From Patescibacteria group bacterium (GTDB taxonomy: Bacteria; Patescibacteriota; Patescibacteriia; UBA2591; JAQUPP01): 64,000 bases of DNA. The notes under the pieces are model-generated. The model did no database searches, was not told where the DNA came from, and saw only the letters and a list, made by a program, of their open reading frames with translations. Where the stretch lies: positions 19,249 through 83,248 of the forward strand of contig JAQUOF010000002.1 of the NCBI GenBank assembly GCA_028717225.1. The letters are read 5' to 3'. This document shows, in pieces, positions 19,601-52,142 of the stretch. Each line of letters opens with the position of its first letter. Position 1 is the first letter of the stretch. The position numbers were made by a program, and so were the translations under genes.

Positions 19601-20359
19601 TAATCCAACTGACAAAGCAGTTGTTACGCCGGTTGTGGCTGTCCAACCAGGAGTAAGTAAACCAGTTTCAACGCCTGTAATAGTAGCACCATCAGCATAA
19701 GCTTCAGTAGTGCTAACGGTTATAACATTGGCGGCTAAATAGTTATTGGCGGTAAAAGCAGCATCAGAGATGGCGCGTTTTGTACCGTCAACAATCAAAT
19801 ACTTCTGGGTTGAGCCAGCGTATTGAATAAGGCTTCCATTTGGATGAGTTGAAGAAGTAGCAACAACTGTTCCTAATGGATAGGTAAATTTATTAAGTAA
19901 ATCATCAGGTACCCAAGTAACCTTTGACCATGAAGCATCTTTAAATAAGGCTTGGTAAATCTCTGAAGATTGTACCGGTCTTATTTTAGAACCTTCAACA
20001 TAGTAGACGGCATTGGCGGCATAACCGCTAAGACCGCTGCTTTTACCGCGGAAGAGTGAACCGTCGCGGAAAGGCATTGGATTACCATCAGTGTAAGCGG
20101 CTAATTCTGAGGCAGTAACTGTTTTCACAGTTGAATAATCAGTTGGATAACCCCAAGAATGATAGACGCCAAAATGTGGGAAAACGCGTTTTGTCGCACC
20201 CTGGACATAATAGACGGCGGAGCTACCAGCAGCTTTTACTAAATCGCCATCAGCGATATAAGTAGTAGCATTGGCTGGGAGAAGTCCCGCTATGCCTATG
20301 GACCAGCAGATTGTCATTACGGTAGTCCCGATTGCAATAGCTTTTTTAAGTTTATTCAT
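16628..20359 (-). CDS. Large secreted T/S/G/A/V-rich surface protein (1243 aa), putative adhesin or S-layer-like
   Basis: N-terminal signal peptide (MNKLKKAIAIGTTVMTICWSIGIAGL). Very low complexity, beta-rich composition with repeated TVTG/TLT segments. No recognisable enzymatic motif. Confidence 0.6.
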   Translation of the reverse strand: MNKLKKAIAIGTTVMTICWSIGIAGLLPANATTYIADGDLVKAAGSSAVYYVQGATKRVFPHFGVYHSWGYPTDYSTVKTVTASELAAYTDGNPMPFRDGSLFRGKSSGLSGYAANAVYYVEGSKIRPVQSSEIYQALFKDASWSKVTWVPDDLLNKFTYPLGTVVATSSTHPNGSLIQYAGSTQKYLIVDGTKRAISDAAFTANNYLAANVITVSTTEAYADGATITGVETGLLTPGWTATTGVTTALSVGLSSDNQSSTTLPKGSSNVALLKATLTAGTNGATVTGLTFKRSGVGATGDWSDLYLYEGTTLLTPTSRTLSTDTQTVEFSALNVVIAANSSKYVTLRGDLLCTGAACATTSATAADQHVFSLTSIETGATVTGLPVTGNLMTVGSQAIGTATVTDTVTPTAPAVGAQNAEIADFKITNGSSNNSITFDQVTMTFTGNTARSGITNFKLYQAGETNVLATASSIATNDTLTLTLTTPFVILKGQNRTFVLKADVAGRVGETLQFYVEEDNQVVITDTQYGVGAKVTNTFAGTQLTLKGGTITLADNGPTVGNIGKNQQDVVLTKASITANRAVEVRKLGVTLCVDEAAVLDNDAGLVGDLRIKDIDTGSTLMTGTINTVHIGRCAVAHNATGNANPTYYELTNTFNLSSGMVKHLGVTVDLSADTDGLLDNIKLNASLAMVNRDATYVEIRDTTTGDYVKIADVVPQAITGDDQTIQAASLTPTLASTPVSATYIKGATEVPTMGMTLSASEAANVNVRSIQARVYAETTGDVGTLVNPNLVISSVKLYQEGTTTPLGVKSVSWSSSYGTVTFDGLNVTIPKGTNQKFTFKADLTSSITEGYNYWVGVYNHDATDNITAYDTDGNGLAISVADGTDYSINTGLTPTVKITAGLGGTLTVAKDAGSPSGDIVVAGTSNVVMSKFKFTANSENITIDKLKVAIATSASSRSVTAVKMTYTGGTATGYLSGGYATFTGMNWLIAKDKSDVLTISADLNTIDGGATSGDDINLGLACNTATYCNATGASGTVLGDTTSDFASATTDNFTANTMYVRQTRPTVALATGSATGAFVPGWTDVGTWTVSADAADDVYVNTLKFTIESNDTDWTAALAATDFTLYDTGSLSVDILTDTGITATYSTSTLTVTADSADYRFIVPKGSSKSYLLKAHTSAGGVIGTALAAGVDAFLDAYINSDAVAGTTGNLVWYDKSVGGTAINGNLIKALPVYSNGRTYAR

Positions 20360-28975: not shown

Positions 28976-29050
28976 TGGTGGGCGCACTAGGAATCGAACC
29001 TAGGGTCTTCGCAATGTGAATGCGACGTTTTACCATTAAACTATGCGCCC
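28976..29050 (-). tRNA. tRNA-Val (anticodon CAC), 75 nt including the encoded CCA
   Basis: Acceptor GGGCGCA/TGCGCCC, D-stem GTTT/AAAC, anticodon stem TCGCA/TGCGA with loop TTCACAT, T-arm CTAGG-TTCGATT-CCTAG, and a 3' ACCA. Confidence 0.85.
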
Positions 29051-29067
29051 GATTCAGATAAAATCCC

Positions 29068-30285
29068 CTAGAATGAACCCGCCAATTTATACATTGGCAA
29101 TATAATAGCCGCCATCATTCCGCCAACCACTACGCCCAAGAAAATAATAATAATCGGTTCAAGAAGAGTAACCAATCTTGATAAAATATTTTCAACTTCA
29201 CGGGAATAAAAATCAGCCAATCTTCCCAAAACTTCATCCAATTTGCCGGTTTCTTCGCCCACTGACAATAGATGGGAAACCATTTTGGGAACATAACTGG
29301 ATTTAATAAGAGTAGAGCTGACAGATCTACCTTCTTCCACGTCTTTAATTGTTTGAAAAATCAAATCTTTAAAAATACTATTTTCCACCACTTCGGCTAC
29401 TATTTTAAGAGCTGAAGTCAAAGGTATTCCGCCGACAAGCAGCGTGCCTAAAGAACGGGTAAAACGAACGATATATAAATTTTGGAAAAGCAAACCGAAA
29501 ACAGGAGCTTTTAAAATTAATTTGTCCCAAATTTTTTTTCCTTCCGAAGTTTTTAAAAAAAATCTTAAAAATATAACCAGAGCAATAATCAATGGAATTA
29601 AAAAAATCACGTAATGCTGCAAAAAATTACTGGTATTTATCAAAAACTGCGTAGACATCGGCAATTGCGCACCTGATTCTTTTAAAACGCTGGTTAACTG
29701 AGGAATAACAAACAGCATCATCAGAATCATCACGCTGATTACCATTATAATAACAAAGAGCGGATAGATCATCGCTCCTTTTATTTTATTGCTTAAATCA
29801 AAACTTTTTTCTTGCTCGTTGGCCAAATAATTCAAGACTTCGTCCAACCGGCCGGCTGTTTCACCGGCTCTGACCATATTGATATAAAAATCATTAAAAA
29901 CCTTGGGATACTTGGCTAAAGCGGAAGAAAATCTGATTCCCCCTCTCACGTCTTCGGCAATTGCCCCGACGACACCCTTTAAATATGTATCATTGGTTTG
30001 TTTAACTAAAATTTCCAGACATTTTACCAAAGGCAAACCGGCGGAAACCATGGTTGAAAGCTGGCGAGATAAAAAAACCAAATCTTTCGGTTTAACACCG
30101 CTGAATAAATTTATTTTAAAATTAATAGGACGGCGCAATATAGATTTTGTACCGCCCTCAACAAGAGATAAAATAATAAGATCGCGGGAAGTTAAAACTT
30201 CCATCGCCGCCTCTTGATTTAAAGCATCAACAATTCCTTTAACTGTTTCGCCTTTTAAATTTTTAGCTTTATATTCGAATAACAT
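29068..30285 (-). CDS. pilC: Type IV pilus assembly platform protein PilC (GspF family)
   Basis: 405 aa with two GspF-type repeats and three TM segments. It is the last gene of the pil cluster. Confidence 0.8.
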   Translation of the reverse strand: MLFEYKAKNLKGETVKGIVDALNQEAAMEVLTSRDLIILSLVEGGTKSILRRPINFKINLFSGVKPKDLVFLSRQLSTMVSAGLPLVKCLEILVKQTNDTYLKGVVGAIAEDVRGGIRFSSALAKYPKVFNDFYINMVRAGETAGRLDEVLNYLANEQEKSFDLSNKIKGAMIYPLFVIIMVISVMILMMLFVIPQLTSVLKESGAQLPMSTQFLINTSNFLQHYVIFLIPLIIALVIFLRFFLKTSEGKKIWDKLILKAPVFGLLFQNLYIVRFTRSLGTLLVGGIPLTSALKIVAEVVENSIFKDLIFQTIKDVEEGRSVSSTLIKSSYVPKMVSHLLSVGEETGKLDEVLGRLADFYSREVENILSRLVTLLEPIIIIFLGVVVGGMMAAIILPMYKLAGSF

Positions 30286-30483
30286 AAAATTAGCTTTTTA
30301 GGAATTACCTGCCCGCCATATGCCTAATGTCATATTTAGGTTTAATAAATGAAATTATAAAATTAATCTATGTTCTAAATTAATTAATTCAGACAGGCTT
30401 TGGCAGGCGGGGCTTTTTAGCTTATTAGACAACGCTTCTTAGTCCCTAAAAAGCTAAGAAGCTACAAGCTAAAAAGCTGTTTT
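30286..30483. repeat. Intergenic repeat family 1, full form (~198 bp). It fills the whole gap between pilT and pilC.
   Basis: It is ~92% identical to 55166-55340. It consists of AAGCT-rich flanks plus a ~115-bp insert (cctgcccgccatatgcc...gacaggctttggcaggcgggg) that is absent from the short copies. Confidence 0.8.
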
Positions 30484-31560
30484 TTACCTTCTTAATAACG
30501 ATTTTAACATTTCTTCGTCAACGCAATTTTTAATCGCATCTTCAAGTGAGATTTTACTGGAAGTCACCAAATCGGCCAAATATCTGTCCATGGAAACTGA
30601 TTTTGTATCTTCGCCTGTTTGTAAAAAGGTTGATAATTGATGAAGCTTGCCTTCGGCAATAATAGTTCTAATACTGGGCGGAGCAGATAAAACCTCAAGG
30701 GCTCTTACTCTCCCACCGCCAATTTTAGGCACAAGTCTGGTAGCGATAATACCGGCTAAATTTTCACTGAGAAAATATCTGATATTTTCTTCTTCGCTGG
30801 TTGGGAAAAAATGAAGTATTCTTTTGATCGTCTGAATGGATGAGCCCGTGTCCATAATGGCAAATATTAAAGTACCGGCTTCAGCTAAAGCAAAAAGTTC
30901 TTCCATTGTTTCGGCATTTTTAATTTGTGAAATCATCACCACGTCAACGTGACCCCTCTCTCTGATGAAATTTAATCCTTCTTTAAAAGATAAAACATCT
31001 CGACCAACTTCTCTCTGTTCAATTATACTTTTAACACCGGTTAAATTATACTTAATCGGTTTTTCCAAAGTGGCGATATATTTATTTTGATTTTTATTAA
31101 TATTGTCAATCAATGAAGTCACCAAGCTGAACCTTCCCGAATCGTGAGGACCGGCGACAAAAACAATTCCCTTTGATAAATTGGTAAAATCTTGAACCAT
31201 TTTAGGCAGTTCAATTTTTTCCTGATCGAGAGCTTCTTGAGACAACAATTTTAAACAAATCGCCGGAGTGTTTTTTTGGTAATAAACATGAATCTGAACC
31301 GACCCGAGTTTCCCGATTTCCTTAACGGTTATAATCTGCTTTTTTTCTTGAAGCTCGCTTTGTTCTTTATTGTCCAGAACAGCGGAAATAACATCACTGA
31401 TAAAAGAAGCGGCTAAAATATTTTCGCCGCTCAGCGGCTGTATTTTTCCGTCAAGATTGATAAAGGGAATTTGCGCGTTAATTAAATAAATTTCCGAAAC
31501 CTTTTTTTCGGCTGCGGAAACGCAAATGCGATTTAAAATCATTTCTGTTTGAGTATACAT
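30484..31560 (-). CDS. PilT-family protein with degenerate ATPase motifs (putative pseudo-ATPase)
   Basis: It aligns with PilT throughout (IGGGRVRALEVL, AEGKLHQL). But the Walker A is GPHDSGRFS (canonical GPTGSGKST), the Asp box is TLEKPIKY (TIEDPIEF), the Walker B is VVMISQIKN (ILVGEMRD), and the His box is IMDTG (TLHTT). Confidence 0.75.
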   Translation of the reverse strand: MYTQTEMILNRICVSAAEKKVSEIYLINAQIPFINLDGKIQPLSGENILAASFISDVISAVLDNKEQSELQEKKQIITVKEIGKLGSVQIHVYYQKNTPAICLKLLSQEALDQEKIELPKMVQDFTNLSKGIVFVAGPHDSGRFSLVTSLIDNINKNQNKYIATLEKPIKYNLTGVKSIIEQREVGRDVLSFKEGLNFIRERGHVDVVMISQIKNAETMEELFALAEAGTLIFAIMDTGSSIQTIKRILHFFPTSEEENIRYFLSENLAGIIATRLVPKIGGGRVRALEVLSAPPSIRTIIAEGKLHQLSTFLQTGEDTKSVSMDRYLADLVTSSKISLEDAIKNCVDEEMLKSLLRR

Positions 31561-31611
31561 ACCAAATTTTTTAAAATTTTTAAATTATTTATAATGCGAA
31601 AAATTTTACTA

Positions 31612-31721
31612 AAAATTTGAGTACCCTGTTAAATGCCGCTTTACGGCAATTTCGCCTTTGGCGAAATTATTTAACAGGGTAAAGGTTTTGTAACTCCGAC
31701 TTAACGTCCGGAGACAAAACT
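31612..31721. repeat. Structured intergenic repeat, family 2 copy B (between pilB and pilT)
   Basis: aatttgagtacc-[ctgttaaat...atttaacag palindrome]-ggtaaaggttttgt, followed by the conserved hairpin aactccgacttaacgtccggagacaaaac. Confidence 0.65.
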
Positions 31722-31723
31722 CT

Positions 31724-33469
31724 TTATTCCCTGGCCACTCTTAAAACTTCCTCAATTGTAGTCTCCCCTTTTAAAGTTTTAATATAACCGTCTTGGATCA
31801 TACTGATCATTTTTTGTCTTTTAAATTCAGCTTTTACGTCGTCAATTTTACAGCCCCTGACAATAATATCTTTCATCTGATCAGTGATTTCTAATGCTTC
31901 AAAAATGGCAATTCTGCCTTTATAACCTTCTTGGCCGCATCGCGTACAACCCTTGCTGTGATAGATAGTAAGATGTCCGGTTTTTTTATCTCTGAATTTT
32001 TCCACATCTATGTCTTCTACATCCTTTAGGGCATTTTCAATATCTTTTTCCACTCCGGCCGGCGGGATAATTGGCTCGGCGCAATATGGGCACATTTTCC
32101 TGACCAATCGCTGAGCTAACACTATATTTAAAGAAGAGGCAACCAAAAATGGTTCTATTTTCATATCAATCAAACGAGGTATGGCGCCGATAGCGTCATT
32201 GGTATGCAAGGTGGAAAGCACAATATGACCGGTTAAAGCGGCGTGGGTGGCTAATTCTGCAGTTTCGTTGTCGCGGACCTCGCCGACCATAATAACATTC
32301 GGGTCTTGTCTGACCACTGAACGAAGACCGGTAGCAAAAGTATAACCTATGTCAGGTTGAATTTGACTTTGATTAACTCCTTTTAAAACGTATTCAACCG
32401 GATCTTCCAAAGTAACCACATTAACTCCGGGCTGATTTAAAACTTTTAAAATAGCATAAAGAGTGGTGGTTTTACCTGAACCGGTTGGACCGGTGGCTAA
32501 AACCATTCCATGAGGCCTGAGTAAATTTTTATTGATTATCTCCAGTTCTCTTCCCCAAAAACCAAGATCTTGCAAATCAAATATTTTTTTGGTGGGGTCT
32601 AAAATTCTGATAACGGTTTTTTCTTGTCCCAATAATGGCAAGATTGATACTCTTAAATCTATTTGACGTTTTGAAACTATGACTCTGATACGGCCGTCTT
32701 GGGGAATACGCGTTTCATCCAATTTTAAATTCGCCATTACTTTAACGCGGGAAATAATTGCTGAATGAAGATGCCCCGGTAACAACGCCACTTCCCTTAA
32801 AACGCCGTCAATTCTGTAACGAATCCTGGTTTGATCTCCCAGCGGCTCAATATGAACATCAGACGCGTCATTATCAACAGCGTATTTTAAAATAGAAGCC
32901 ACAAGTTTGGCAATTGGAGCCATTTTGGAAATTTCTTCAAGTCCTATATCGGCAATGGATTTTCCGGCTTTAATAATCGGGGCGAAACGATCTTCGGCTG
33001 CGCCAACTGCTTCTTCCACTTCAACGGTTAGTCCGCCATATTGGGTTAGAATACTTTTAAAACCCGAAATAGTGATAGTATAATATTCAACTTTTAAATT
33101 TTTTTGACGGGAAATAAATTCAATCGCTTCTCTGCCTTTAAAATCACCCGGATCAAGCATGGCTACTTTCAATATATCGCCTTCTTTGGCAAAAGATACG
33201 ACATGATAATTTTCAGCCGTTTCTTTAGGTAAAATTTCCAAAATTTTTCGATCAATAATCAAGCCATATAAATTGGCAACGGGTACGGCGAAAATCTGCC
33301 CTTTTGCCCAAGCTATATCTTCTTCAGAAATAACTTTTTTATGTTCAAGAAGCGTATCGGGCGCACTTTGCGTTTTTTCCGCTTCGGCTAAAAGTTCATT
33401 ATAATAATCTTTGGTTAATTTTCCATGTTCCAAAAGATATTTGACAATTGTATTTTGACCATCAAGCAT
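31724..33469 (-). CDS. pilB: Type IV pilus assembly ATPase PilB (GspE family)
   Basis: Intact Walker A LATGPTGSGKTTT, Walker B IMVGEVRD and His box STLHTN. C-terminal tetra-Cys zinc motif (CPYC...CTRC). Confidence 0.9.
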   Translation of the reverse strand: MLDGQNTIVKYLLEHGKLTKDYYNELLAEAEKTQSAPDTLLEHKKVISEEDIAWAKGQIFAVPVANLYGLIIDRKILEILPKETAENYHVVSFAKEGDILKVAMLDPGDFKGREAIEFISRQKNLKVEYYTITISGFKSILTQYGGLTVEVEEAVGAAEDRFAPIIKAGKSIADIGLEEISKMAPIAKLVASILKYAVDNDASDVHIEPLGDQTRIRYRIDGVLREVALLPGHLHSAIISRVKVMANLKLDETRIPQDGRIRVIVSKRQIDLRVSILPLLGQEKTVIRILDPTKKIFDLQDLGFWGRELEIINKNLLRPHGMVLATGPTGSGKTTTLYAILKVLNQPGVNVVTLEDPVEYVLKGVNQSQIQPDIGYTFATGLRSVVRQDPNVIMVGEVRDNETAELATHAALTGHIVLSTLHTNDAIGAIPRLIDMKIEPFLVASSLNIVLAQRLVRKMCPYCAEPIIPPAGVEKDIENALKDVEDIDVEKFRDKKTGHLTIYHSKGCTRCGQEGYKGRIAIFEALEITDQMKDIIVRGCKIDDVKAEFKRQKMISMIQDGYIKTLKGETTIEEVLRVARE

Positions 33470-33509: not shown

Positions 33510-33818
33510 TTACGGCTGTTTTACTTCTTTTTTGGGAAAAGGCATAAAGGGATTAACCTTACCCTTCTCGGATACTTTAACCGGTTCAAAAAACGTCTGA
33601 ATATTGCGCATTTCTTTAAATTTTGGATTTTCTAAAATATTTTCAATTTTATCAACCGAGGGAATAGAAACTGATAAATATGACGGACTATTACTGACTG
33701 GGATGTTTGGAGAAATTTTCGGATTTTTAATGTATTTTATTAAAATAAAACCTATGGCTAAAATAATCAGCGCTAAGAATATAATTAATCCGATCATTTT
33801 TTTATTAATATTCGGCAT
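33510..33818 (-). CDS. Small membrane-anchored protein in the pil cluster (102 aa), possibly a PilP-like accessory
   Basis: N-terminal TM (IGLIIFLALIILAIGFILI). It sits between pilB and pilO. Confidence 0.35.
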   Translation of the reverse strand: MPNINKKMIGLIIFLALIILAIGFILIKYIKNPKISPNIPVSNSPSYLSVSIPSVDKIENILENPKFKEMRNIQTFFEPVKVSEKGKVNPFMPFPKKEVKQP

Positions 33819-33827
33819 TGTTTTAAA

Positions 33828-34388
33828 TTAATCGTTTAAAGAATAAGTTTTTATAGTTACGGTCAATGAAGTTCCAATATTTTTTAAGGCAATCTGAGAC
33901 ACATCCATAATTCTGCTGTTTTTTTCCAAATAATCCAAAAATTCTTTGCATGCCTGATAAGTGCCTTTGTCAAAATTTAAGTTTATGGTAGTAACTCCTT
34001 TATCGGAATTAACGCTAAACCCCACAAACTCCATTCCTGCCTGTCTGGAAATAATATCAATCTGATTTAAAATGCTCGGCAAGTCTGATTTTTCGGCAAT
34101 CGTATAATCCAATTTTTCTAAACTGTCTGGACTGATTTTTTTTGTCCGAACCTCCAGTGTTTCCAATTTATTCAAATATGCCTCTTGATCTTTAACAATT
34201 GTTTTATAATTTTCAACATCAAATTGTCCCCCCCCTGTTGTTTGATTAACTTTTGGTTTTATAATAAAAAAATATTCAGCGGAAAAAGCAGCAATAATAA
34301 TAAAAACAATCAGTGTCCAACAAAATTTAACCAAAATAATATGGTACCACTTAATGTCAAATTTTTTTTCTTCTATAATCTTTGCCAT
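33828..34388 (-). CDS. pilO: PilO-like type IV pilus assembly protein
   Basis: 186 aa with an N-terminal TM followed by a coiled-coil region. Gene order is pilM, pilN, pilO. Confidence 0.5.
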   Translation of the reverse strand: MAKIIEEKKFDIKWYHIILVKFCWTLIVFIIIAAFSAEYFFIIKPKVNQTTGGGQFDVENYKTIVKDQEAYLNKLETLEVRTKKISPDSLEKLDYTIAEKSDLPSILNQIDIISRQAGMEFVGFSVNSDKGVTTINLNFDKGTYQACKEFLDYLEKNSRIMDVSQIALKNIGTSLTVTIKTYSLND

Positions 34389-34573: not shown

Positions 34574-35497
34574 TTACTGTTTAAATACTCCGTCAACCAA
34601 AGTTAAATCAATAGAAAAAGTAATAGCTCCCAGCGGAGACCTGGTGATATTCGCAACTTGGACATTTTTAACAAAATCAGGAGCATTATTAAAAACAATG
34701 ATTTGTTTAGCCACTGAAATTAAATCTTTAGCCGTTGCCGATAAATGAACCGTCCCGCTTGTATCAGCGGAAAAATCACCAAAATAAACGTCCGGAATAG
34801 TATAAATTTCCAACAAACTGAAAAATCTGGTCCAGTAAACATGATTAGCTAAAATTTCTTCCACTCTCATGGCCTTTTTTTCCAAAGCCGCGACATCATT
34901 TCTAACTTTTAACAATGGATAAGTTTGGGCCTCTAAAATTTGCGAATCAATTTTAAGTTGATCTCTCTCAACTCTTAACTGTTCAAAATGCCAATTTGTA
35001 TATAATAAAACAATAAAAAAAACCGTGATAACGACAATTATTGTCGCGGAAAGAATCAGCATTTTTTCCTTCACGATTCTTGGAATAATCATTTCTTGCC
35101 CGGGCATTAAAGTAATTTCCGGAGTTTGCGAAACTTCTGTTAAAATTTTTGTCTCTCGCGGTTTATCGGCCGCAGAGCGAATGATTTCCGGTTTTTTCTC
35201 AGGTTCTTTTTTGGGTTCTTCTTGAGTAAGAAGCTCCGCTAATTCTGACATTTTTTCTTTTTTATCATTTTGATAAATTTCCGGTTCAACTATTTTCAAA
35301 TTAGAAATTGGCGATTCTTTCGGCGCTGTCGATTGTTTTTTAAAATTGAACCAACCGATTTTTGGTTCGGCAGTTTTCAATGGAACCGAATTTTTTTCTT
35401 TAATCGGCTGAGAAAATTTTATTTCCGCCGGTTCTTCGGTTTTTTTATTTATTTTTTCGTCTTCCCTCATCTCTTCGGGAAGTAAATTGATAGACAT
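34574..35497 (-). CDS. pilN: PilN-like type IV pilus assembly protein with extended charged N-terminal region
   Basis: 307 aa. TM (ILSATIIVVITVFFIVLLY) followed by a coiled coil. It lies immediately downstream of pilM. Confidence 0.5.
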   Translation of the reverse strand: MSINLLPEEMREDEKINKKTEEPAEIKFSQPIKEKNSVPLKTAEPKIGWFNFKKQSTAPKESPISNLKIVEPEIYQNDKKEKMSELAELLTQEEPKKEPEKKPEIIRSAADKPRETKILTEVSQTPEITLMPGQEMIIPRIVKEKMLILSATIIVVITVFFIVLLYTNWHFEQLRVERDQLKIDSQILEAQTYPLLKVRNDVAALEKKAMRVEEILANHVYWTRFFSLLEIYTIPDVYFGDFSADTSGTVHLSATAKDLISVAKQIIVFNNAPDFVKNVQVANITRSPLGAITFSIDLTLVDGVFKQ

Positions 35498-35590: not shown

Positions 35591-36634
35591 TCAGTCAAGT
35601 TGTCTCAGCGCCAAGCCGATGGCTACGGCAAAACGCGGCGCCACTTCTTCAAGGGCGGGTTTTAATTCTTCAGGGTATGCCACTCTCGCCCACGGATCAC
35701 CAATTATTACCGTGGTATTGAGTGTTTGTGAAAAATAATTGGCCAAATTAGGCAGATAGGCCGAACCGCCGGAAAGAATAATTTTTTCCACGGTTTTATT
35801 GGATTGACCCTGATAAAGTTTTAATGAATAAATGACTTCGTCAATCACCGGTTTTAAAATACTTTCTATAATAGCCGGAATTTTAGAAGCGCCGCTTAAT
35901 CCTATATCCCTTTTAAATTGTTCCGCTCTTTTAAAATCAATATTCAAACTGTTGGCAATGGCGCGAGTAATGGTTACTCCCCCGATATCTATGCTTCGAT
36001 TTAGAGTCGGCACTCCTTTTTCAATAATAATAATATCAGTAGTTAAAGCGCTGGTGTCAACAATCATAATGGTGGACTGAGATTTTCCAATTAAAACTCT
36101 TGATAGAGCAAAAGCTTCTGTCTCTAATGAAAGCAATTGTAAATCAGCTTGCTTAAATATTTCAACATACCGCTTAACTAAATTTCTGGAAGCGGCGGTC
36201 AAAAGAATGCGATAATTTTTTCTTTGAGCATCAACTGTGATAGTATCAATAATCCGCCAATCCAAAATCACATCTTCAATGGGCATGGGAATAAATTTTT
36301 TCGCTTCCCAATGAACCGCGTCTCCCAATTCTTGCTTTTTCATTACCGGCAAAGTAATGACTGAATTAAAAACGGAAAAACTTGGTAAAGCGGTTATTGC
36401 TTTAAAAGAAGTTACACCGGCGGTTTTATATGTTTTTTTAAGCAAACTGGCCACTTGCCGCAAAACTTCATTCGGGTCGCCCTTAACAATATCCCCCATT
36501 GCTCGTTCAGCATAACCATAAGTCATCAAGGTTGGAACACCCTGTTCTTTTTTAAGTTCTACCAATTTAATACTGGTAGAACCCAAATCAATTCCTAAAT
36601 AACCTTCTTGTTTTCTAAAACCAAAAAAACTCAT
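35591..36634 (-). CDS. pilM: Type IV pilus assembly protein PilM (actin-like ATPase fold)
   Basis: 347 aa. YLGIDLGSTSIKLVEL at the N-terminus. It is the first gene of the pil operon. Confidence 0.85.
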   Translation of the reverse strand: MSFFGFRKQEGYLGIDLGSTSIKLVELKKEQGVPTLMTYGYAERAMGDIVKGDPNEVLRQVASLLKKTYKTAGVTSFKAITALPSFSVFNSVITLPVMKKQELGDAVHWEAKKFIPMPIEDVILDWRIIDTITVDAQRKNYRILLTAASRNLVKRYVEIFKQADLQLLSLETEAFALSRVLIGKSQSTIMIVDTSALTTDIIIIEKGVPTLNRSIDIGGVTITRAIANSLNIDFKRAEQFKRDIGLSGASKIPAIIESILKPVIDEVIYSLKLYQGQSNKTVEKIILSGGSAYLPNLANYFSQTLNTTVIIGDPWARVAYPEELKPALEEVAPRFAVAIGLALRQLD

Positions 36635-36739: not shown

Positions 36740-37465
36740 ATGTGGATAACAAATATCAATAAAATTAAGAATTTTTGCCTTAAATTGTTTTTTCCAATCA
36801 ATTGCCTTGGTTGCGGTCAAGAGAATTATTTTATTTGTCCAAATTGCTTGGAAAATATCCCTATTTTAGACGAATTAACTTGCCCTATTTGCCATAAAAA
36901 AACAATTGACAGAAAGGTTTATTATAAATGCTATTTTAATTTAGACGGCGTTATTATTGCGGTTAATTATAATCAACCGCTGGTCAAAAAAGCCATTCGC
37001 AATTTCAAATACGCGCCCTATTCTTTCCCTCTGGCTAAAAATCTGGCTTTTCTAATCATTAAACGGCTTAGAAAATCACCTGTTTCCATTTCTCATTTTA
37101 TAAAAAATAATTTCGTTTTAATGCCTATTCCAATTACGCGGCGCAAATTGGCTCAGCGGGGCTATAATCAATCATTGTTGCTGGCCAAAGAATTATCAAA
37201 TGAATTCAATTGGCCGATAATGGAAATTTTAACGAAAATTAAAGATACCAAGTCTCAGACCAATCTTAACAAAGAAGAACGGGAAAATAATGTTAAAAAT
37301 ACTTTTGTAATTAATGAAAATTTTACCAAGACCGAAATAAAAGATAAAAACATCATTTTAATTGATGATGTTTTTACGACCGGTGCGACCTTATTTGAAG
37401 CAGCCAGAATTTTGCGCCAATCCGGAGCCAAGGAAGTCTGGGCTATTGTTTTAGCGCATGATTAA
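36740..37465 (+). CDS. comFC: ComF family protein (ComFC; phosphoribosyltransferase domain)
   Basis: N-terminal double CxxC zinc finger. C-terminal PRTase motif IILIDDVFTTGATL. Confidence 0.75.
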   Translation: MWITNINKIKNFCLKLFFPINCLGCGQENYFICPNCLENIPILDELTCPICHKKTIDRKVYYKCYFNLDGVIIAVNYNQPLVKKAIRNFKYAPYSFPLAKNLAFLIIKRLRKSPVSISHFIKNNFVLMPIPITRRKLAQRGYNQSLLLAKELSNEFNWPIMEILTKIKDTKSQTNLNKEERENNVKNTFVINENFTKTEIKDKNIILIDDVFTTGATLFEAARILRQSGAKEVWAIVLAHD

Positions 37466-39526: not shown

Positions 39527-39609
39527 AGATAAAAAAATTAAATTAGTTAATTATTATACTATATAGCATAATTAATCGTTTTGTTTTGTCAAGTTGGCAG
39601 GTGGATAAT

Positions 39610-40596
39610 TTATTGATTTTTCAACTTGTTAATTTTATTATTTTTAAGAATAAATAATAAGCAGCAAAAAATAATCAAGGCAAATAAAATAATCAATAAA
39701 ATAAAGAAGGGTGTTTTTTTTGTCGGTTGTGGAAGAGTGATAATTTCTGTCCGCATGTTTCCGGCCATATCAACCGCTCTAACCTTAATAATACTATTCA
39801 AATTTTGATCAGTCAACAAATACGGACTGTCTCCTTTATTCCAATTTTCTTGATTTTTATCTCTTGTTTCCGAGATTTCGTAATATTTAAGACCGGATTG
39901 TTTATCAGTGGTGGAAAAAACAATAAAATATTTATTATCAAAAATCAAAGAATCTTGTTTGATTTCTACAGTGAATGGCTCGGGAAGTGTTTTATCTTCT
40001 TCCAATACCTCTAACCATTCATCTTTGGGAATAACTTGATTATTGGGCAAAATTGTCAAATTTACATTTTGAATGGTTGGTTTTAACGGCGTGGCCAATC
40101 CGTCATTTAATAATAATTCTGAATTGTCCAAAAAATTTATTTCAGTTTTTATTTGCTGCCCATTCGCGTTTAATTGATCTTGCGGAATTTCACGGACTTT
40201 AAAAATCATTTTAACCAGCAAATTGCTTAATCCCGGGTCGCCGGCTATATGGCCCGAATAACCGCCGGGAATGCCTCCGACAAAATTAATAATTCCTTTT
40301 TCTTTATCAATTGTCGGCGGTTGAGGAATAATAGTCAGAAGAGAATCCCCAAAACTTAAATCAACAGCTTCCAGTAAATCTTGGGGGTATTTTAAATTCG
40401 CTTCAATAACATTAATGTTTTCTTCCGCTTTTAAATTAAGTCTTGCTTCAATAATAAAGGTATCGCCTATTTTGTATTCGCCGCTTTTAGGCTCTAAATA
40501 TAAAGTGGCGGCAGAAACTTTATTAAAAATGCAAAATGAAAAAATAAAAATGCAAAATGAAAAAATTATATATTTTAAATTTTTAATTTTAGACAT
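39610..40596 (-). CDS. Secreted cohesin-like domain protein with a C-terminal TM anchor (328 aa)
   Basis: Signal peptide. YKIGDTFIIEARLNL...INVIEANLKYPQDLLEAVDL matches the cohesin pattern. An AGN-containing Ig-like segment (VRAVDMAGN) follows. The C-terminus is TM plus KNNKINKLKNQ. Confidence 0.5.
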   Translation of the reverse strand: MSKIKNLKYIIFSFCIFIFSFCIFNKVSAATLYLEPKSGEYKIGDTFIIEARLNLKAEENINVIEANLKYPQDLLEAVDLSFGDSLLTIIPQPPTIDKEKGIINFVGGIPGGYSGHIAGDPGLSNLLVKMIFKVREIPQDQLNANGQQIKTEINFLDNSELLLNDGLATPLKPTIQNVNLTILPNNQVIPKDEWLEVLEEDKTLPEPFTVEIKQDSLIFDNKYFIVFSTTDKQSGLKYYEISETRDKNQENWNKGDSPYLLTDQNLNSIIKVRAVDMAGNMRTEIITLPQPTKKTPFFILLIILFALIIFCCLLFILKNNKINKLKNQ

Positions 40597-40640
40597 TTGG
40601 GTTTATTTAGAAATTAGAAATTTCGCGCCAAGAGCGCGGA

Positions 40641-41777
40641 TTATCCCGTCCAATGATACAATAAAATACTTAAATCCTGATAATTAACCACTCCATCATT
40701 ATTTAAATCTGTTTTAATATTTTTTGGCTTGCCCCAATTATAAAGCAAAATAGACACATCAACAAAATTGACAATATCTCTTCCTTTTTTATTAAAATCA
40801 TGGTTTAAATTAGCGGGAATAATTTTAACAGATTCTCCTGACGATGGTTCTTCTGACGTTTCATCCTGCCCTAAAACTTGAAAATTCAAAGTTTTGGAAA
40901 AATCAGAAGCCAATCCTCCCTCAAGAGAAGATTTTATTTTAGTAGAATGAGCGCCATTTTCCAAAGGAGTTGTATCTAAATTATAAAAATAAGCGCCGAT
41001 TTGATCAGCTTCTACTTCTTTGATAAATGGATTTGAAGAATAAACATAAACAGAAACTTGAGATTTTGGCGCGGTTTGGCCAAAAATAATAATTTTTTCT
41101 CCTTTTTTGACTTGATCTTTATCTAGGTCAATGGTTGGCGGCAAAAAAATATTCGCAATGGTTGTAGTCATACCCGACTGAACGCTGAGCGTGTAGCTAA
41201 AACTTGGAGAACGCCTTCCTCTAAAATCTTCTGCCCACAAAGAAAGACTGCAGATACCCGGAGTAATTCCGGGAAGCTCAAATTTAAAATTTGCCATATT
41301 GTCTGCTTTAATAATACCTGCTATTTTTCCATCTTTTAGAATGGTTACATCAGTATTGGGGTAAGCCATTCCTTGAATAATCACTTTTGTTTCAGGTACA
41401 TAAAGTCCGCCACCGCCACCTCCTCCTCCACCGCCCGAGATACAATCGGAAGTATCAAAAGTACAATCAGCCTTACAACTTAAATTACCCCTGTTAAAAC
41501 CTTGTTTACCGCAAGTTTGACTATCTAAATCACTACCATCGCATTGTTCTCCCAATTCAACTACACCATTGCCGCAAACCGTGATTATAACCGAGACAGA
41601 AGTTTGAAAAGTTTCAGCTTGGGAAATCTTGGGAAATAAAGGTAAAATTAAAAATAAAATAACTGAAAAAATAGTCAGTTTATATTTTTTAGAAAATAAT
41701 AAATCCCGCAAAAAAGTGCGGGATAAAAATAACCAGTTTCGAAAAAATATTTCGTTCTGGTTATTTTTTATTGTCAT
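40641..41777 (-). CDS. Secreted Cys-rich-repeat protein with a C-terminal dockerin domain
   Basis: Signal peptide. CGNGVVELGEQCDGSD is a Myxococcus-type Cys-rich repeat. A G10 linker follows. The C-terminal dockerin pair is DFNKKGRDIVNFVDVSILLYNW and DLNNDGVVNYQDLSILLYHW. Confidence 0.6.
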   Translation of the reverse strand: MTIKNNQNEIFFRNWLFLSRTFLRDLLFSKKYKLTIFSVILFLILPLFPKISQAETFQTSVSVIITVCGNGVVELGEQCDGSDLDSQTCGKQGFNRGNLSCKADCTFDTSDCISGGGGGGGGGGLYVPETKVIIQGMAYPNTDVTILKDGKIAGIIKADNMANFKFELPGITPGICSLSLWAEDFRGRRSPSFSYTLSVQSGMTTTIANIFLPPTIDLDKDQVKKGEKIIIFGQTAPKSQVSVYVYSSNPFIKEVEADQIGAYFYNLDTTPLENGAHSTKIKSSLEGGLASDFSKTLNFQVLGQDETSEEPSSGESVKIIPANLNHDFNKKGRDIVNFVDVSILLYNWGKPKNIKTDLNNDGVVNYQDLSILLYHWTG

Positions 41778-41789
41778 AGCATTTTTTGA

Positions 41790-42713
41790 TTACTTTTTCT
41801 TTTTCTTCTTTAAAATCAAGCCCGCGATGCCGATTAAAATAATAACAGCTATACCGATTATCAGTAAAATTTTTGAGTTCAAATCAAATATTTTGTTTTG
41901 CTGTCCCGCAGTAATGGTGCCTTTGGGCATAATGCTTAAATGAATTTCTCCCGAGCTGACCACTTCATCTTTCTTGAAAATTTTATACTGCGCCCAATAA
42001 CTGCCGGCTTTTAATTTTGTTTTAAGTTCGGCAACCGCCCAATCGGTTTTAAACGGTTCAACTTTTCCTATTTTGGAAGTTTCAATTGTTTCTACAATAT
42101 TTGATTTGTCTTCGCCGTAAATTTCAAATTTTACTTTGCTCGGGGCGGCTTTTATATTGCCTAAATTCTCAGTTTGCATTGAGAATTTGATTATTCCCGG
42201 AACATATCCCCACCAAGCTTTATATCCTTCTTCCAAATCGGAAACTTTTATTCCTTTAATTTTGAAATCAAAAATATCTTTTGCCACGGTTAAATTAACG
42301 TCAATTTGTCCGCCTAAAAGTATGGAGACCGTTCCCTGTTCCGGCGCTCTGACCGGTGAAGTTTTTATTCTGATACTGCCTTTATATTCGCCGAATTTGG
42401 CGTTTTTCGGAACATCAATGCTGAAAATAATCGGCACTTGCTGAGCTCCGGCCGGCATAATAAATTCTTTTCCTTTATCAATTGTAATCCAGTCGTCTGC
42501 TTTTGGAACATTAGTAATTACTTCCACTTTCCAATCTTCAACCGGATCGCCTCTGACCAAAGTAATTTTTTTCTCGTAATGAGATCCCTGTCCAAGATTT
42601 TCATTGTCAATATAAGGAGGAGAAATACCAAAACCCGCTTTCGCCGTTGGGGCGATTACAAAAGCCAATAATAGAAAAGTAATTAAAATTAAATTTATTT
42701 TTTTCCAAACCAT
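41790..42713 (-). CDS. Secreted two-domain beta-sandwich-like protein with a C-terminal TM anchor and poly-Lys tail
   Basis: Signal peptide (AKAG). The C-terminus is ILLIIGIAVIILIGIAGLILKKKKKK. Confidence 0.4.
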   Translation of the reverse strand: MVWKKINLILITFLLLAFVIAPTAKAGFGISPPYIDNENLGQGSHYEKKITLVRGDPVEDWKVEVITNVPKADDWITIDKGKEFIMPAGAQQVPIIFSIDVPKNAKFGEYKGSIRIKTSPVRAPEQGTVSILLGGQIDVNLTVAKDIFDFKIKGIKVSDLEEGYKAWWGYVPGIIKFSMQTENLGNIKAAPSKVKFEIYGEDKSNIVETIETSKIGKVEPFKTDWAVAELKTKLKAGSYWAQYKIFKKDEVVSSGEIHLSIMPKGTITAGQQNKIFDLNSKILLIIGIAVIILIGIAGLILKKKKKK

Positions 42714-42762
42714 GTAATTGATAAATTTCTAATCTGCCGAATCTAAAAATTCTTTTTATTTA

Positions 42763-44550: not shown

Positions 44551-44663
44551 ATATTAAAATTTAATTTATTAAAATTATTAAATTATTTATATTTTAATAG
44601 TATCACAAACTTTGAAAAAAACAATGTCTTTTTCAGTGGATAACTAATCAAATTTTTAAAAAA

Positions 44664-52136: not shown

Positions 52137-52142
52137 AAAAAC

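What the first reader, a model, noticed from the sequence alone, without database searches (positions are those of the whole stretch)
30484..31560. PilT homologue with every catalytic motif degenerate (pseudo-ATPase) beside an intact PilB
The protein aligns to PilT along its length. It nevertheless has GPHDSGRFS where Walker A GPTGSGKST belongs, which loses the P-loop Lys and Ser/Thr. It has TLEKPIKY for the Asp box and VVMISQIKN for Walker B (Glu to Gln). It has IMDTG for the His box TLHTT. PilB in the same operon keeps all its motifs. This implies a non-hydrolysing PilT-like subunit, for example a regulatory or structural hexamer partner, or pili that cannot retract. That is relevant to CPR episymbiont attachment.
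Basis: partly seen in the sequence, partly recalled or inferred. Interest (0 to 1): 0.65.

Follow-up and report, generated by a model that had tools for sequence, protein, structure and literature searches.

The report
Catalytically dead PilT in pilus operon
This ultrasmall bacterium's type IV pilus operon carries, in the slot of the retraction motor PilT, a well-conserved PilT look-alike that lacks nearly every residue needed to burn ATP, and the same is true across a large branch of Patescibacteria, so their pili probably do not retract in the textbook way.

Summary
ORF 30484-31560(-) is a full-length PilT homologue. It aligns without gaps through all motifs to Aquifex PilT (E 6e-57), and its model matches PilT4 structures (TM 0.92). 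It has lost the Walker A Lys and Ser, both arginine fingers, two of three Asp-box acidic residues, the catalytic Glu and the His-box His. PilB next door is intact.

It is not a decaying gene: dN/dS is 0.04, like pilB, pilM and pilC. It is also not a one-off. It belongs to a tight clade ('class I') with a conserved alternative motif set (GPRDSGRST / TxEKPIK / VSQ / IMDT). That clade lies inside a monophyletic group of non-canonical PilTs (bootstrap 100/100), which makes up 50 of the 80 best species-level genome hits, all Patescibacteria-type. In class I and most others the gene sits between intact pilB and pilC, the slot canonical PilT holds in other CPR.

In class I the catalytic positions drift, while the P-loop and closed-interface residues are fixed. 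The best reading is a non-hydrolysing PilT-derived ring that still docks on the pilus platform. No canonical PilT was seen in the same genomes, but whole genomes could not be searched. I found no prior description. I rate it a new variant of a known kind.

The parts
30484..31560 (-). pilT* : PilT-derived pseudo-ATPase, 358 aa (class I of the non-canonical Patescibacteria PilT clade)
   Evidence: ORF. PF00437 T2SSE scores 51.8 bits, above its cut-off. TIGR01420 pilT_fam scores 250.5 bits, below its cut-off of 319.1. PDB PilT match at E 6e-57. AF2 pLDDT 89.8 with best fold hits all PilT. dN/dS 0.040.
31249..31302 (-). Arg-finger segment, residues 87-104 (SVQIHVYYQKNTPAICLK). The family-invariant fingers are replaced by Q89 and K104.
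   Evidence: In class I Q89 is 91 % and K104 is 91 % conserved; canonical sequences have R at 100 % at both positions.
31126..31152 (-). Degenerate Walker A / P-loop GPHDSGRFS (class I consensus GPRDSGRST). Changes: Lys->Arg, Gly4->Asp; in this species also Ser->Phe.
   Evidence: In class I D140 is 97 % and R143 is 95 % conserved.
31048..31071 (-). Asp box TLEKPIKY. The Mg-coordinating Glu (E166) is kept; the Asp and the second Glu are replaced by Lys.
   Evidence: E166 is 100 % conserved in class I and kept in 61 of 62 non-canonical representatives.
30916..30945 (-). Walker B DVVMISQIKN. Gly->Ser is fixed. The catalytic Glu is Gln here, and that position is unconstrained in the clade.
   Evidence: Position 212 is Q in only 51 % of class I; canonical sequences have E at 100 %.
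30841..30864 (-). His box FAIMDTGS, with His->Asp.
   Evidence: D237 is 81-82 % in class I; canonical sequences have H at 100 %.
30652..30675 (-). AIRNLIRE-like segment SIRTIIAE, partly kept. The Arg equivalent to Pa R294 / Gm R296 is Ala.
31724..33469 (-). pilB, extension ATPase with all motifs intact, an MshEN domain and a zinc motif
29068..30285 (-). pilC platform protein (T2SSF x2)
35591..36634 (-). pilM (actin-like)
34574..35497 (-). pilN-position gene, 307 aa, no significant Pfam hit
   Evidence: Conserved position in relatives.
33828..34388 (-). pilO
   Evidence: PF04350 at 23.9 bits.
33510..33818 (-). Small conserved operon gene (102 aa, one N-terminal hydrophobic segment) between pilO and pilB
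   Evidence: A gene of 96-102 aa is present at the same position.
36740..37465 (+). ComF-type gene (double zinc ribbon + PRTase), divergent from pilM, conserved in class I synteny

Best explanation
The gene encodes a PilT-derived pseudo-ATPase. I infer that it is the orthologous replacement of the retraction ATPase PilT in this lineage, not an extra copy.

Shown: it keeps the whole PilT fold, and it keeps the residues that in studied PilTs build the closed subunit interface. From these I infer that it still forms a PilT-like hexameric ring that can dock at the cytoplasmic face of the PilC/PilM platform, the site that PilB also uses.

Shown: it has lost the P-loop Lys, both Arg fingers, the catalytic Glu and the gamma-phosphate His. 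From this I infer that it cannot run the hydrolysis-driven open/closed cycle that powers retraction.

Inferred role: it most likely acts as a static ring that competes with or displaces PilB. In that way it would gate the machine between extension and a motor-free state, giving either slow passive retraction or a held pilus.

Its P-loop is frozen in a new, more basic state (R-D-S-G-R, plus two Lys in the Asp box). That suggests the pocket is either self-filled or binds a nucleotide or other anion without turnover, which would lock one conformation.

Summary of status. Shown: homology, register, motif loss, purifying selection, clade-wide conservation, operon position. Inferred: lack of ATPase activity, ring formation, PilC docking and the gating role.
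For: - Register and homology.
- Loss of the residues that McCallum 2017 (PMC5424180) lists as completely conserved in the whole PilT/VirB11-like family (Walker A/B, catalytic Glu, two Arg fingers). Only the Asp-box Glu is kept.
- Functional gene: dN/dS is 0.040, against pilB 0.020, pilM 0.022 and pilC 0.075. It diverges at about the rate of PilC across 11 species.
- Confident intact fold: pLDDT 89.8, with the P-loop blocks at 91-94.
- Constraint pattern: the catalytic positions R87, E212, M213, R214, D215, R201 and H230 are free to vary. G140D, K143R, G211S, R89Q and R104K are fixed at 91-97 %.
- Interface residues (roles from PMC6858323): equivalents of Gm E220, R240 and L269 are kept at 94-96 %. 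T221, H230, D243 and R296 are replaced by a different fixed set.
- Clade: all His-less PilTs form one clade, 100/100 with motif columns masked, and class I is 100/100. 62 of 138 single-domain 50 %-identity representatives are of this type.
- Same operon slot as canonical PilT in other CPR.
- Vertical co-divergence with PilB and PilM.
- No second PilT-family gene in the window or within +-10 kb in 50 related loci, and no genome with both types among 80.
- Precedent for a structural role of ATPase-dead PilT: V. cholerae pilT K136A/E204A (PMC6821130; bioRxiv 10.1101/2025.10.30.685630).
- Precedent for PilT-independent retraction: bioRxiv 10.1101/497933.
Against: - No biochemical data exist. Lys->Arg and Glu->Gln are classic bind-but-not-hydrolyse changes, so nucleotide binding may remain, and a very slow turnover cannot be excluded.
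- The ring state and PilC docking are inferred from about ten mapped residues and a monomer model. The tool gives no coordinates and no multimer prediction.
- Pa R294 (Gm R296), whose mutation weakens PilC binding in P. aeruginosa, is Ala in class I.
- Whole genomes could not be searched, so a canonical PilT/PilU elsewhere is not excluded.
- The NJ topology placing class I inside class II may be affected by long branches. Class I keeps R240 and E220, which many class II members have lost.
Confidence: 0.55

Rival explanations
1. Adaptor for another motor. The dead PilT ring only bridges a catalytically active PilT/PilU-type ATPase, encoded elsewhere in the genome, to PilC. This would mirror ATPase-dead PilT supporting PilU-driven retraction in Vibrio.
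For: V. cholerae and A. baylyi pilT Walker mutants still support PilU-powered retraction (PMC6821130). PilT is modelled to bridge PilU to PilC. Tandem PilT-PilT fusions that pair a dead half with a live half exist in nature.
Against: No second PilT-family gene is in the 64 kb window or within +-10 kb of 50 non-canonical loci. No WGS record among the 80 best hits carries both a canonical and a non-canonical copy, and the lineage names of the two sets do not overlap. These genomes are small (contigs of 0.64-1.03 Mb probably hold most of a genome) and the dead copy holds the only operon slot.
Confidence: 0.15
2. Ligand-controlled switch. The remodelled, more basic pocket binds ATP/ADP without Mg, or another anionic signal, and the protein reports that signal to the pilus machine without hydrolysis.
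For: The P-loop is among the most conserved segments of class I in its altered form (G137 100 %, R139 91 %, D140 97 %, S141 93 %, G142 100 %, R143 95 %). The Asp-box Glu is kept in 61 of 62 representatives. The charge changes are Asp-box D->K and E->K, Lys->Arg, and a new Arg139.
Against: This window's own protein has Phe at the Mg/phosphate-contacting Ser position and His for Arg139. An Asp inside the P-loop could instead occupy the phosphate site. No binding data exist.
Confidence: 0.15
3. Still a retraction ATPase that uses non-canonical chemistry, with residues migrated elsewhere.
For: Some pseudoenzymes regain activity through relocated residues (a general point made in PMC10211241, listed). 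Basal members of the clade keep the Lys and the catalytic Glu.
Against: In class I the catalytic Glu position is unconstrained (Q 51 %, also E, R, K, H, S, T), and the following M-R-D, the Arg fingers and the His are all lost. No alternative P-loop exists. The clade shows an accelerated rate.
Confidence: 0.08
4. Decaying gene or annotation/sequencing artefact.
For: None beyond the motif loss itself.
Against: dN/dS is 0.04, with 78 synonymous and 15 non-synonymous differences. The identical protein occurs on four independent contigs. The ORF is full length (339-367 aa) in 56 database clusters and 11 species-level genomes. The structure model is confident.
Confidence: 0.01

Closest known systems
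Canonical type IVa pilus retraction ATPase PilT (A. aeolicus 2EWV/2GSZ, G. metallireducens PilT4 6OJX, P. aeruginosa 3JVV)
   Same: Full-length homology (E 6e-57). Same two-domain fold (TM 0.92 to 6ojx_A). Same length. Same position between pilB and pilC. Kept elements: the Asp-box Glu, the QRE motif, the GGGR loop, and closed-interface residues equivalent to E220, R240 and L269.
   Different: It lacks the Walker A Lys, both Arg fingers, the catalytic Glu, the His-box His and two Asp-box acidic residues. It scores below the TIGR01420 cut-off (250 vs 319). Residues equivalent to the open-interface or His-contact set T221, H230, D243 and R296 are replaced. New conserved patches appear at the N and C termini.
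Engineered ATPase-dead PilT (pilT K136A, E204A) in Vibrio cholerae and Acinetobacter baylyi
   Same: A PilT ring without hydrolysis that still has a function at the machine. It shows that PilT has a structural role separable from catalysis (PMC6821130).
   Different: Those mutants work only because PilU supplies the ATPase activity. Here no PilU or second PilT was found, and the loss is natural, ancient and affects all motifs.
PilU (PilT-dependent accessory retraction ATPase)
   Same: PilT-family paralogue with a divergent AIRNLIRE region.
   Different: PilU has intact Walker A/B, Asp and His boxes, and co-occurs with PilT, usually adjacent to it. This protein has none of the catalytic residues, sits in the pilT slot itself and has no partner nearby.
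Archaellum FlaH, a RecA/KaiC-like ATP-binding, non-hydrolysing ring partner of the motor ATPase FlaI (recalled from memory, not tested here)
   Same: A type IV filament machine that contains a nucleotide-binding but catalytically incompetent ring protein alongside the true motor ATPase.
   Different: FlaH is not a PilT/VirB11-family protein and is not derived from the motor ATPase.
Tandem PilT-PilT fusion proteins with one degenerate half (P0132, P0137, P0195, seen)
   Same: Independent natural examples of PilT modules that have lost catalytic motifs yet are retained.
   Different: There the dead module is covalently tied to a module with intact or largely intact motifs. Here the dead module is a free-standing protein with no live PilT partner detected.

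Membership tests
PilT/VirB11-like secretion ATPase superfamily (Pfam T2SSE, PF00437) | Score above the Pfam gathering threshold | tested here: met
   51.8 bits against a cut-off of 24.9, but only residues 120-280 match.
PilT/PilU family type IVa pilus ATPase (NCBIfam TIGR01420) | Score above the curated cut-off | tested here: not met
   250.5 bits against a cut-off of 319.1, although the match is full length (9-347 of the protein, 2-339 of 343 in the model).
PilT (retraction ATPase) | Two-domain PilT fold (N-terminal PAS-like domain plus RecA-like C-terminal domain) | tested here: met
   AF2 pLDDT 89.8, pTM 0.88. The top 30 Foldseek PDB hits are all PilT or PilU; the best is 6ojx_A with TM 0.92 and rmsd 2.0.
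PilT (retraction ATPase) | Walker A GxxxxGK[ST] | tested here: not met
   GPHDSGRFS here; class I consensus GPRDSGRST.
PilT (retraction ATPase) | Two arginine fingers in the N-terminal domain | tested here: not met
   Q89 and K104 stand in place of Gm R83 and R98.
PilT (retraction ATPase) | Asp box with conserved acidic residues (E-D-P-I-E) | tested here: not met
   E-K-P-I-K. Only the first Glu, the Mg ligand in PilB per PMC5424180, is kept.
PilT (retraction ATPase) | Atypical Walker B followed by the catalytic Glu (G-E-M-R-D) | tested here: not met
   S-Q-I-K-N here. The position is unconstrained in the clade.
PilT (retraction ATPase) | His box histidine (gamma-phosphate contact) | tested here: not met
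   D237.
PilT (retraction ATPase) | AIRNLIRE signature | tested here: inconclusive
   SIRTIIAE. The A/S-I/V-R-x-I/L-I core is kept and the R-E is lost. Class II relatives keep A-V-R-S-[VL]-I-R-E-like motifs.
PilT (retraction ATPase) | Encoded with pilB and pilC in a type IV pilus gene cluster | tested here: met
   pilM-N-O-x-pilB-pilT*-pilC in the window. The same order occurs in all 11 class I loci for pilB and in 10 of them for pilC; pilC was not found in L018.
PilT (retraction ATPase) | ATP hydrolysis and pilus retraction activity | not testable with these tools
   Needs biochemistry and genetics.
PilU (accessory retraction ATPase) | Intact catalytic motifs and co-occurrence with a canonical PilT | tested here: not met
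   The motifs are lost. No canonical PilT is in the window or within +-10 kb in 50 loci. Genome-wide co-occurrence was not fully testable.
Pseudoenzyme (operational definition: enzyme fold retained, catalytic residues lost, gene maintained by selection) | All three criteria | tested here: met
   Fold, residues, selection.

The most novel reading that the evidence does not exclude
In a large, ancient branch of Patescibacteria, the only PilT-family protein of the type IV pilus machine is a pseudo-ATPase. That branch includes the window's lineage and lineages labelled Komeili-, Kuenen-, Buchanan- and Veblenbacteria. If so, these organisms build pili with PilB and have no ATP-driven retraction motor. 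A static PilT-derived ring would gate PilC, either holding pili extended for host attachment or permitting slow motor-independent retraction for DNA uptake. The 'retraction ATPase PilT' drawn in current metabolic reconstructions of these bacteria would then be wrong for much of the phylum.
Probability: 0.4. Interest if true: 0.8.

Novelty: new variant of a known kind. Interest (0 to 1): 0.65.

Why it matters
Type IV pili are regarded as central to how CPR/Patescibacteria attach to hosts and take up DNA. Genome papers routinely label this gene 'retraction ATPase PilT' (PMC11809585, PMC7143001, PMC6744442).

If a large part of the phylum carries only a catalytically dead PilT, models of retraction-dependent DNA uptake, twitching and episymbiotic attachment in those lineages need revisiting.

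For the pilus field, this would be a natural, long-maintained separation of PilT's structural role at the PilC platform from its motor role. Until now that separation has been seen only in engineered Walker mutants.

The clade also offers a graded natural series: His and Asp-box loss, then Lys->Arg, then loss of the Arg fingers and the catalytic Glu. That series is useful for dissecting which PilT features serve docking and which serve catalysis.

Tried and rejected
1. Off-register motifs. Rejected: the alignment to three solved PilTs is gapless through the motifs, and no alternative P-loop exists.

2. Pseudogene. Rejected by dN/dS and conservation.

3. Two class I paralogues in one MAG (P0021 and P0034, Parcubacteria bacterium 4484_255). 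Rejected: both lie in the same syntenic locus (GatA-x-LGT-ComF-pilMNO-x-pilB-pilT*-pilC), so they are two related populations binned together.

4. The ~720-aa top hits of the exhaustive search as close relatives. Rejected: they are tandem PilT-PilT fusions whose score is the sum of two modules.

5. Inspecting the nucleotide pocket in 3D. Not possible: the structure tool returns no coordinates or contacts, and no multimer prediction is available. I used residue mapping to published interface residues instead.

6. Direct test for a canonical PilT in the same genome. Matching contig lengths between canonical and non-canonical hits gave no pairs, but that test has little power. I judged a further 13-CPU-hour protein search with a canonical PilT query unlikely (about 5 %) to hit the right genomes, and did not run it.

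7. Literature. Nine searches (plus reading) found no description of degenerate PilT in CPR, no 'pseudo-ATPase' PilT and no tandem PilT fusions.

8. Promoter and terminator scan of the operon. It gave only consensus-level matches, including one -35/-10-like site in the pilB-pilT* spacer. No conclusion was drawn.
Full report
OBSERVATION. The ORF at 30484-31560 (minus strand, 358 aa) exists as described. It lies in a minus-strand type IV pilus operon:
- pilM 35591-36634
- a pilN-position gene 34574-35497
- pilO 33828-34388
- a small gene 33510-33818
- pilB 31724-33469
- the gene in question
- pilC 29068-30285
- a tRNA 28979-29050.

phmmer against all PDB sequences aligns residues 7-357 to Aquifex aeolicus PilT (2ewv, E 6e-57) and to G. 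metallireducens PilT4 (6ojx, E 5e-51). There are no gaps across the catalytic core, so the motif register is secure. Direct translation of the coordinates gives:
- GPHDSGRFS for Walker A
- TLEKPIKY for the Asp box
- DVVMISQIKN for Walker B plus the catalytic Glu
- FAIMDTGS for the His box.

No GxxxxGK[ST] exists elsewhere in the protein. The two arginine fingers (Gm PilT4 R83 and R98) are Q89 and K104 here. PilB keeps Walker A, the Asp box, Walker B with its Glu, the His box, both finger contexts and its zinc motif.

FAMILY AND FOLD.
- Pfam T2SSE is matched above threshold.
- The PilT/PilU model TIGR01420 matches end to end but scores 250.5 bits, below its cut-off of 319.1.
- An AlphaFold2 model built on 47 relatives is confident: pLDDT 89.8, pTM 0.88, with the P-loop region at 91-94.
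- Its 30 best Foldseek hits in the PDB are all PilT or PilU. The best is ATP-bound PilT4 6ojx_A, TM 0.92, rmsd 2.0 A.

So this is a PilT by descent and by fold, but it fails every catalytic membership criterion.

NOT A ONE-OFF.
- A search of 5.8 billion protein clusters returned 510 relatives.
- The first 56 (97 to 37 % identity, 339-367 aa) all have non-canonical motifs.
- The core 48 ('class I') share a conserved alternative set: GPRDSGRST, T-x-E-K-P-I-K, D-V-V-M-V-S-Q and F-A-I-M-D-T.
- From hit 57 onward nearly every protein listed is canonical: GPTGSGKST, TIEDPIEY, GEMRD, TLHTN. The exception noticed is P0099, which is a class II-type sequence.
- A scan of one genome per GTDB species with the class I profile kept the 80 best loci.
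- Eleven of these are class I. One is the species representative of the window's own species, GenBank JBAZMD01 'Patescibacteria group bacterium isolate SO_2017_LW4_32', at 96 % identity.
- Thirty-nine are a broader 'class II' with graded loss. Typical forms are GPFGSGR-/GPYGSGR-/GSFGSGK- for the P-loop, T-I-E-K-P-I-E-Y for the Asp box, S-E or variable for Walker B, and N, D or E for the His. The arginine fingers are often kept. Lineage labels include Komeili-, Kuenen-, Buchanan- and Veblenbacteria.
- Thirty are canonical: Saccharibacteria, Moranii-, Yanofsky-, Howlettbacteria and two non-CPR.
- An exhaustive HMMER search of 1.84 billion 50 %-identity representatives found 62 His-less representatives among the 138 single-domain proteins in the best 150. 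Of those 62, 61 keep the Asp-box Glu, 22 the Walker A Lys, 18 the catalytic Glu and 12 the Asp-box Asp. Eight, including this protein, have lost all six positions scored.

PHYLOGENY AND SELECTION.
- A neighbour-joining tree was built with all catalytic-motif columns masked (302 columns). The 51 His-less sequences form one clade in 100 of 100 bootstraps.
- Class I is a 100/100 clade placed inside it.
- Distances to non-CPR outgroups rise with degeneracy: canonical CPR 0.97, class II 1.45, class I 1.72.
- Against the 96 %-identical genome, the gene shows 78 synonymous and 15 non-synonymous differences, dN/dS 0.040. The neighbours are similar: pilB 0.020, pilM 0.022, pilC 0.075.
- Across the class I genomes, PilT* identity to the window protein is 55-61 % (45-48 % in L017 and L018). 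That is close to PilC (57-68 %) and a little below PilB (57-70 %).
- PilB and PilM identities show that class II genomes are nearer relatives of the window organism than canonical-PilT CPR. This fits vertical co-inheritance of the whole machine.

WHERE CONSTRAINT WENT (49 class I against 63 canonical sequences).
- Positions invariant in canonical PilT but free in class I: R87, F88, N91, R201, the catalytic Glu 212 (Q in only 51 %), M213, R214, D215 and H230.
- Positions switched and then fixed: R89->Q (91 %), R104->K (91 %), G140->D (97 %), K143->R (95 %), G211->S (95 %).
- Kept in both: T164, E166 and P168 of the Asp box, Q182-R183-E184, D188, D206, E227, R247, L276, G281-R284 and E289.
- New class-I-only conserved residues cluster at the N terminus (S2, A17, E18, Q30, F33, L43, E46, I48) and at the C terminus (A329, D330, V332, E340, K344, E350, L356, R358).

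McCallum 2017 lists Walker A/B, the catalytic Glu, two arginine fingers and one Asp-box Glu as completely conserved across the entire PilT/VirB11-like family, with the His nearly so. Class I retains only that Glu.

I mapped the interface residues defined experimentally by McCallum 2019 onto class I. Equivalents of E220, R240 (closed interface) and L269 are kept at 94-96 %. T221, H230, D243 and R296 (open interface; the Pa R294E mutant loses PilC binding) are replaced by a different fixed set: A, D, H and A.

My inference is that the ring-forming closed contact is preserved while the machinery for cycling between open and closed states has been dismantled.

CONTEXT AND THE PARALOGUE QUESTION.
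- In all 11 class I loci and 29 of 39 class II loci, an intact PilB (GPTG[SC]GK[ST]T) lies immediately upstream. pilC lies immediately downstream in most, including 10 of the 11 class I loci. Canonical PilT holds the same slot in other CPR.
- Class I synteny is GatA-x-LGT-ComF(divergent)-pilM-N-O-x-pilB-pilT*-pilC.
- The window has no other PilT/PilB-family gene in 64 kb.
- No related locus has a second PilT within +-10 kb. No genome record among the 80 carries both a canonical and a non-canonical copy. The lineage labels of the two sets do not overlap.
- An apparent pair in one MAG is the same locus from two binned populations.

This argues for orthologous replacement rather than a PilU-like duplicate, but it is not proof. 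The scan was truncated, used a pattern that many canonical PilTs lack, and only +-10 kb of each contig can be read. I put about 75 % on there being no canonical PilT in these genomes.

MECHANISM. Shown: homology, fold, loss of catalytic residues, selection and operon position. Inferred: the protein forms a PilT-like ring that cannot run the ATP-driven open/closed cycle.

Two experimental precedents make a non-motor role plausible. First, Walker A/B-dead PilT in V. cholerae and A. baylyi still functions as the platform-binding partner that lets PilU retract pili, and PilT is modelled to contact PilC directly. Second, pili retract slowly and weakly without PilT in gonococci.

I therefore favour a static ring that competes with PilB for the PilC/PilM platform. 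It would set the machine to a motor-free state, giving either a held pilus or slow passive retraction. The frozen, more basic pocket (R139, D140, R143, K167, K170, with E166 kept) suggests either a self-filled site or non-hydrolytic binding of a nucleotide or other anion that locks the conformation.

The neighbouring ComF-type gene and DprA near the rearranged subclade tie the operon to DNA uptake. DNA uptake would still need some form of retraction.

Rivals are an adaptor for an undetected second ATPase, a ligand-controlled switch, residual unconventional ATPase activity, and gene decay. Gene decay is refuted.

COMPARISON AND NOVELTY. It works most like an ATPase-dead PilT and descends from PilT. 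It is not a member of the PilT/PilU ATPase family as curated: it scores below the cut-off and five catalytic features are not met. It is not PilU.

Papers on CPR pili either report canonical Walker boxes (Saccharibacteria) or simply label the gene 'retraction ATPase'. Searches for degenerate or pseudo-ATPase PilT found nothing. I rate it a new variant of a known kind: a naturally fixed, clade-wide pseudo-PilT.

LIMITS. There is no biochemistry, no multimer model and no full-genome census. The NJ topology may suffer from long-branch effects. The taxonomic labels of many records are generic or wrong.

Noticed in passing
Proteins P0121, P0123-P0127, P0129, P0132, P0137, P0156, P0195; not in the window: Tandem PilT-PilT fusion proteins of about 700-740 aa, with two complete PilT modules in one chain; some carry extra N-terminal regions. 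In several, one module is degenerate: P0132 N-half GNRGSGRSC/TLQDRIRF, P0195 N-half with no P-loop at all, P0137 C-half GPRNSGKST/ISELPD. In P0156 both modules are degenerate. A trimer of such chains would give a ring with alternating dead and live sites. The source organisms are unknown, and a literature search found no description.
   Followed up: partly
L021, L030-L033, L036, L037, L060 (e.g. L037:10001-11074): One subclade of the non-canonical PilTs (GSFGSGKTT / T-V-E-K-P-I-E-Y / L-S-E-L / L-E-A-D-T; Lys, catalytic Glu and Arg fingers kept) is not flanked by pilB or pilC. Its order is Pth - pilT* - pilM, with Mfd and DprA downstream. The pilus genes are split up in these genomes.
   Followed up: partly
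window 36740-37465 (+): ComF-type protein (double zinc ribbon + phosphoribosyltransferase domain) transcribed divergently from pilM. The same arrangement is conserved in class I relatives. It links the pilus operon to DNA uptake.
   Followed up: partly
window about 39600-53720, especially 44664-52136 (-): A block of large, probably surface-protein genes. It includes a 2490-aa protein with a DUF2341 domain and an Ig-like-domain protein, partly in a GC-richer stretch (0.42 against about 0.35 at 42-50 kb). It sits between GatA (53738-55165) and the thioredoxin-like/LGT genes. In relatives L004, L088 and L089 those genes follow GatA directly, so this looks like a lineage-specific insertion next to the pilus locus.
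   Followed up: partly
window 12997-14541 (-): A 514-aa protein with TrwB/TraG-type coupling-protein ATPase domains and a C-terminal zinc finger, in a genome with no obvious conjugation system in the window.
   Followed up: no
window 58255-60918 (-) and 16628-20359 (-): An 887-aa protein with two Laminin_G_3 (concanavalin-like lectin) domains, and a 1243-aa protein with no Pfam match. Both are possible host-interaction surface proteins.
   Followed up: no
L009-L013, L016, L020-L022 and others (records CAZ..., CAY...): Many third-party-assembly MAG records titled 'uncultured Gammaproteobacteria bacterium' or 'Bdellovibrionales' carry Patescibacteria-type pilus operons 56-61 % identical to the window's. 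The record titles are evidently wrong as taxonomy.
   Followed up: no
P0021 / P0034 (L088, L089): GenBank MAG 'Candidatus Parcubacteria bacterium 4484_255' holds two versions of the same syntenic pilus locus on two contigs of about 14.4 kb. This indicates two related populations binned together.
   Followed up: yes
window 31561-31723 and 30286-30483: Unusually long spacers for a compact genome flank the gene: 163 bp between pilB and pilT*, and 198 bp between pilT* and pilC. A sigma-70-like -35/-10 match (TTAACA-18-TAAAAT) lies at 31632-31603 on the coding strand. This is a consensus match only.
   Followed up: no
P0188, P0191, P0205, P0223 and others: Many canonical PilT modules carry N-terminal extensions of 170-400 residues (total 480-760 aa). 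The extensions were not analysed.
   Followed up: no
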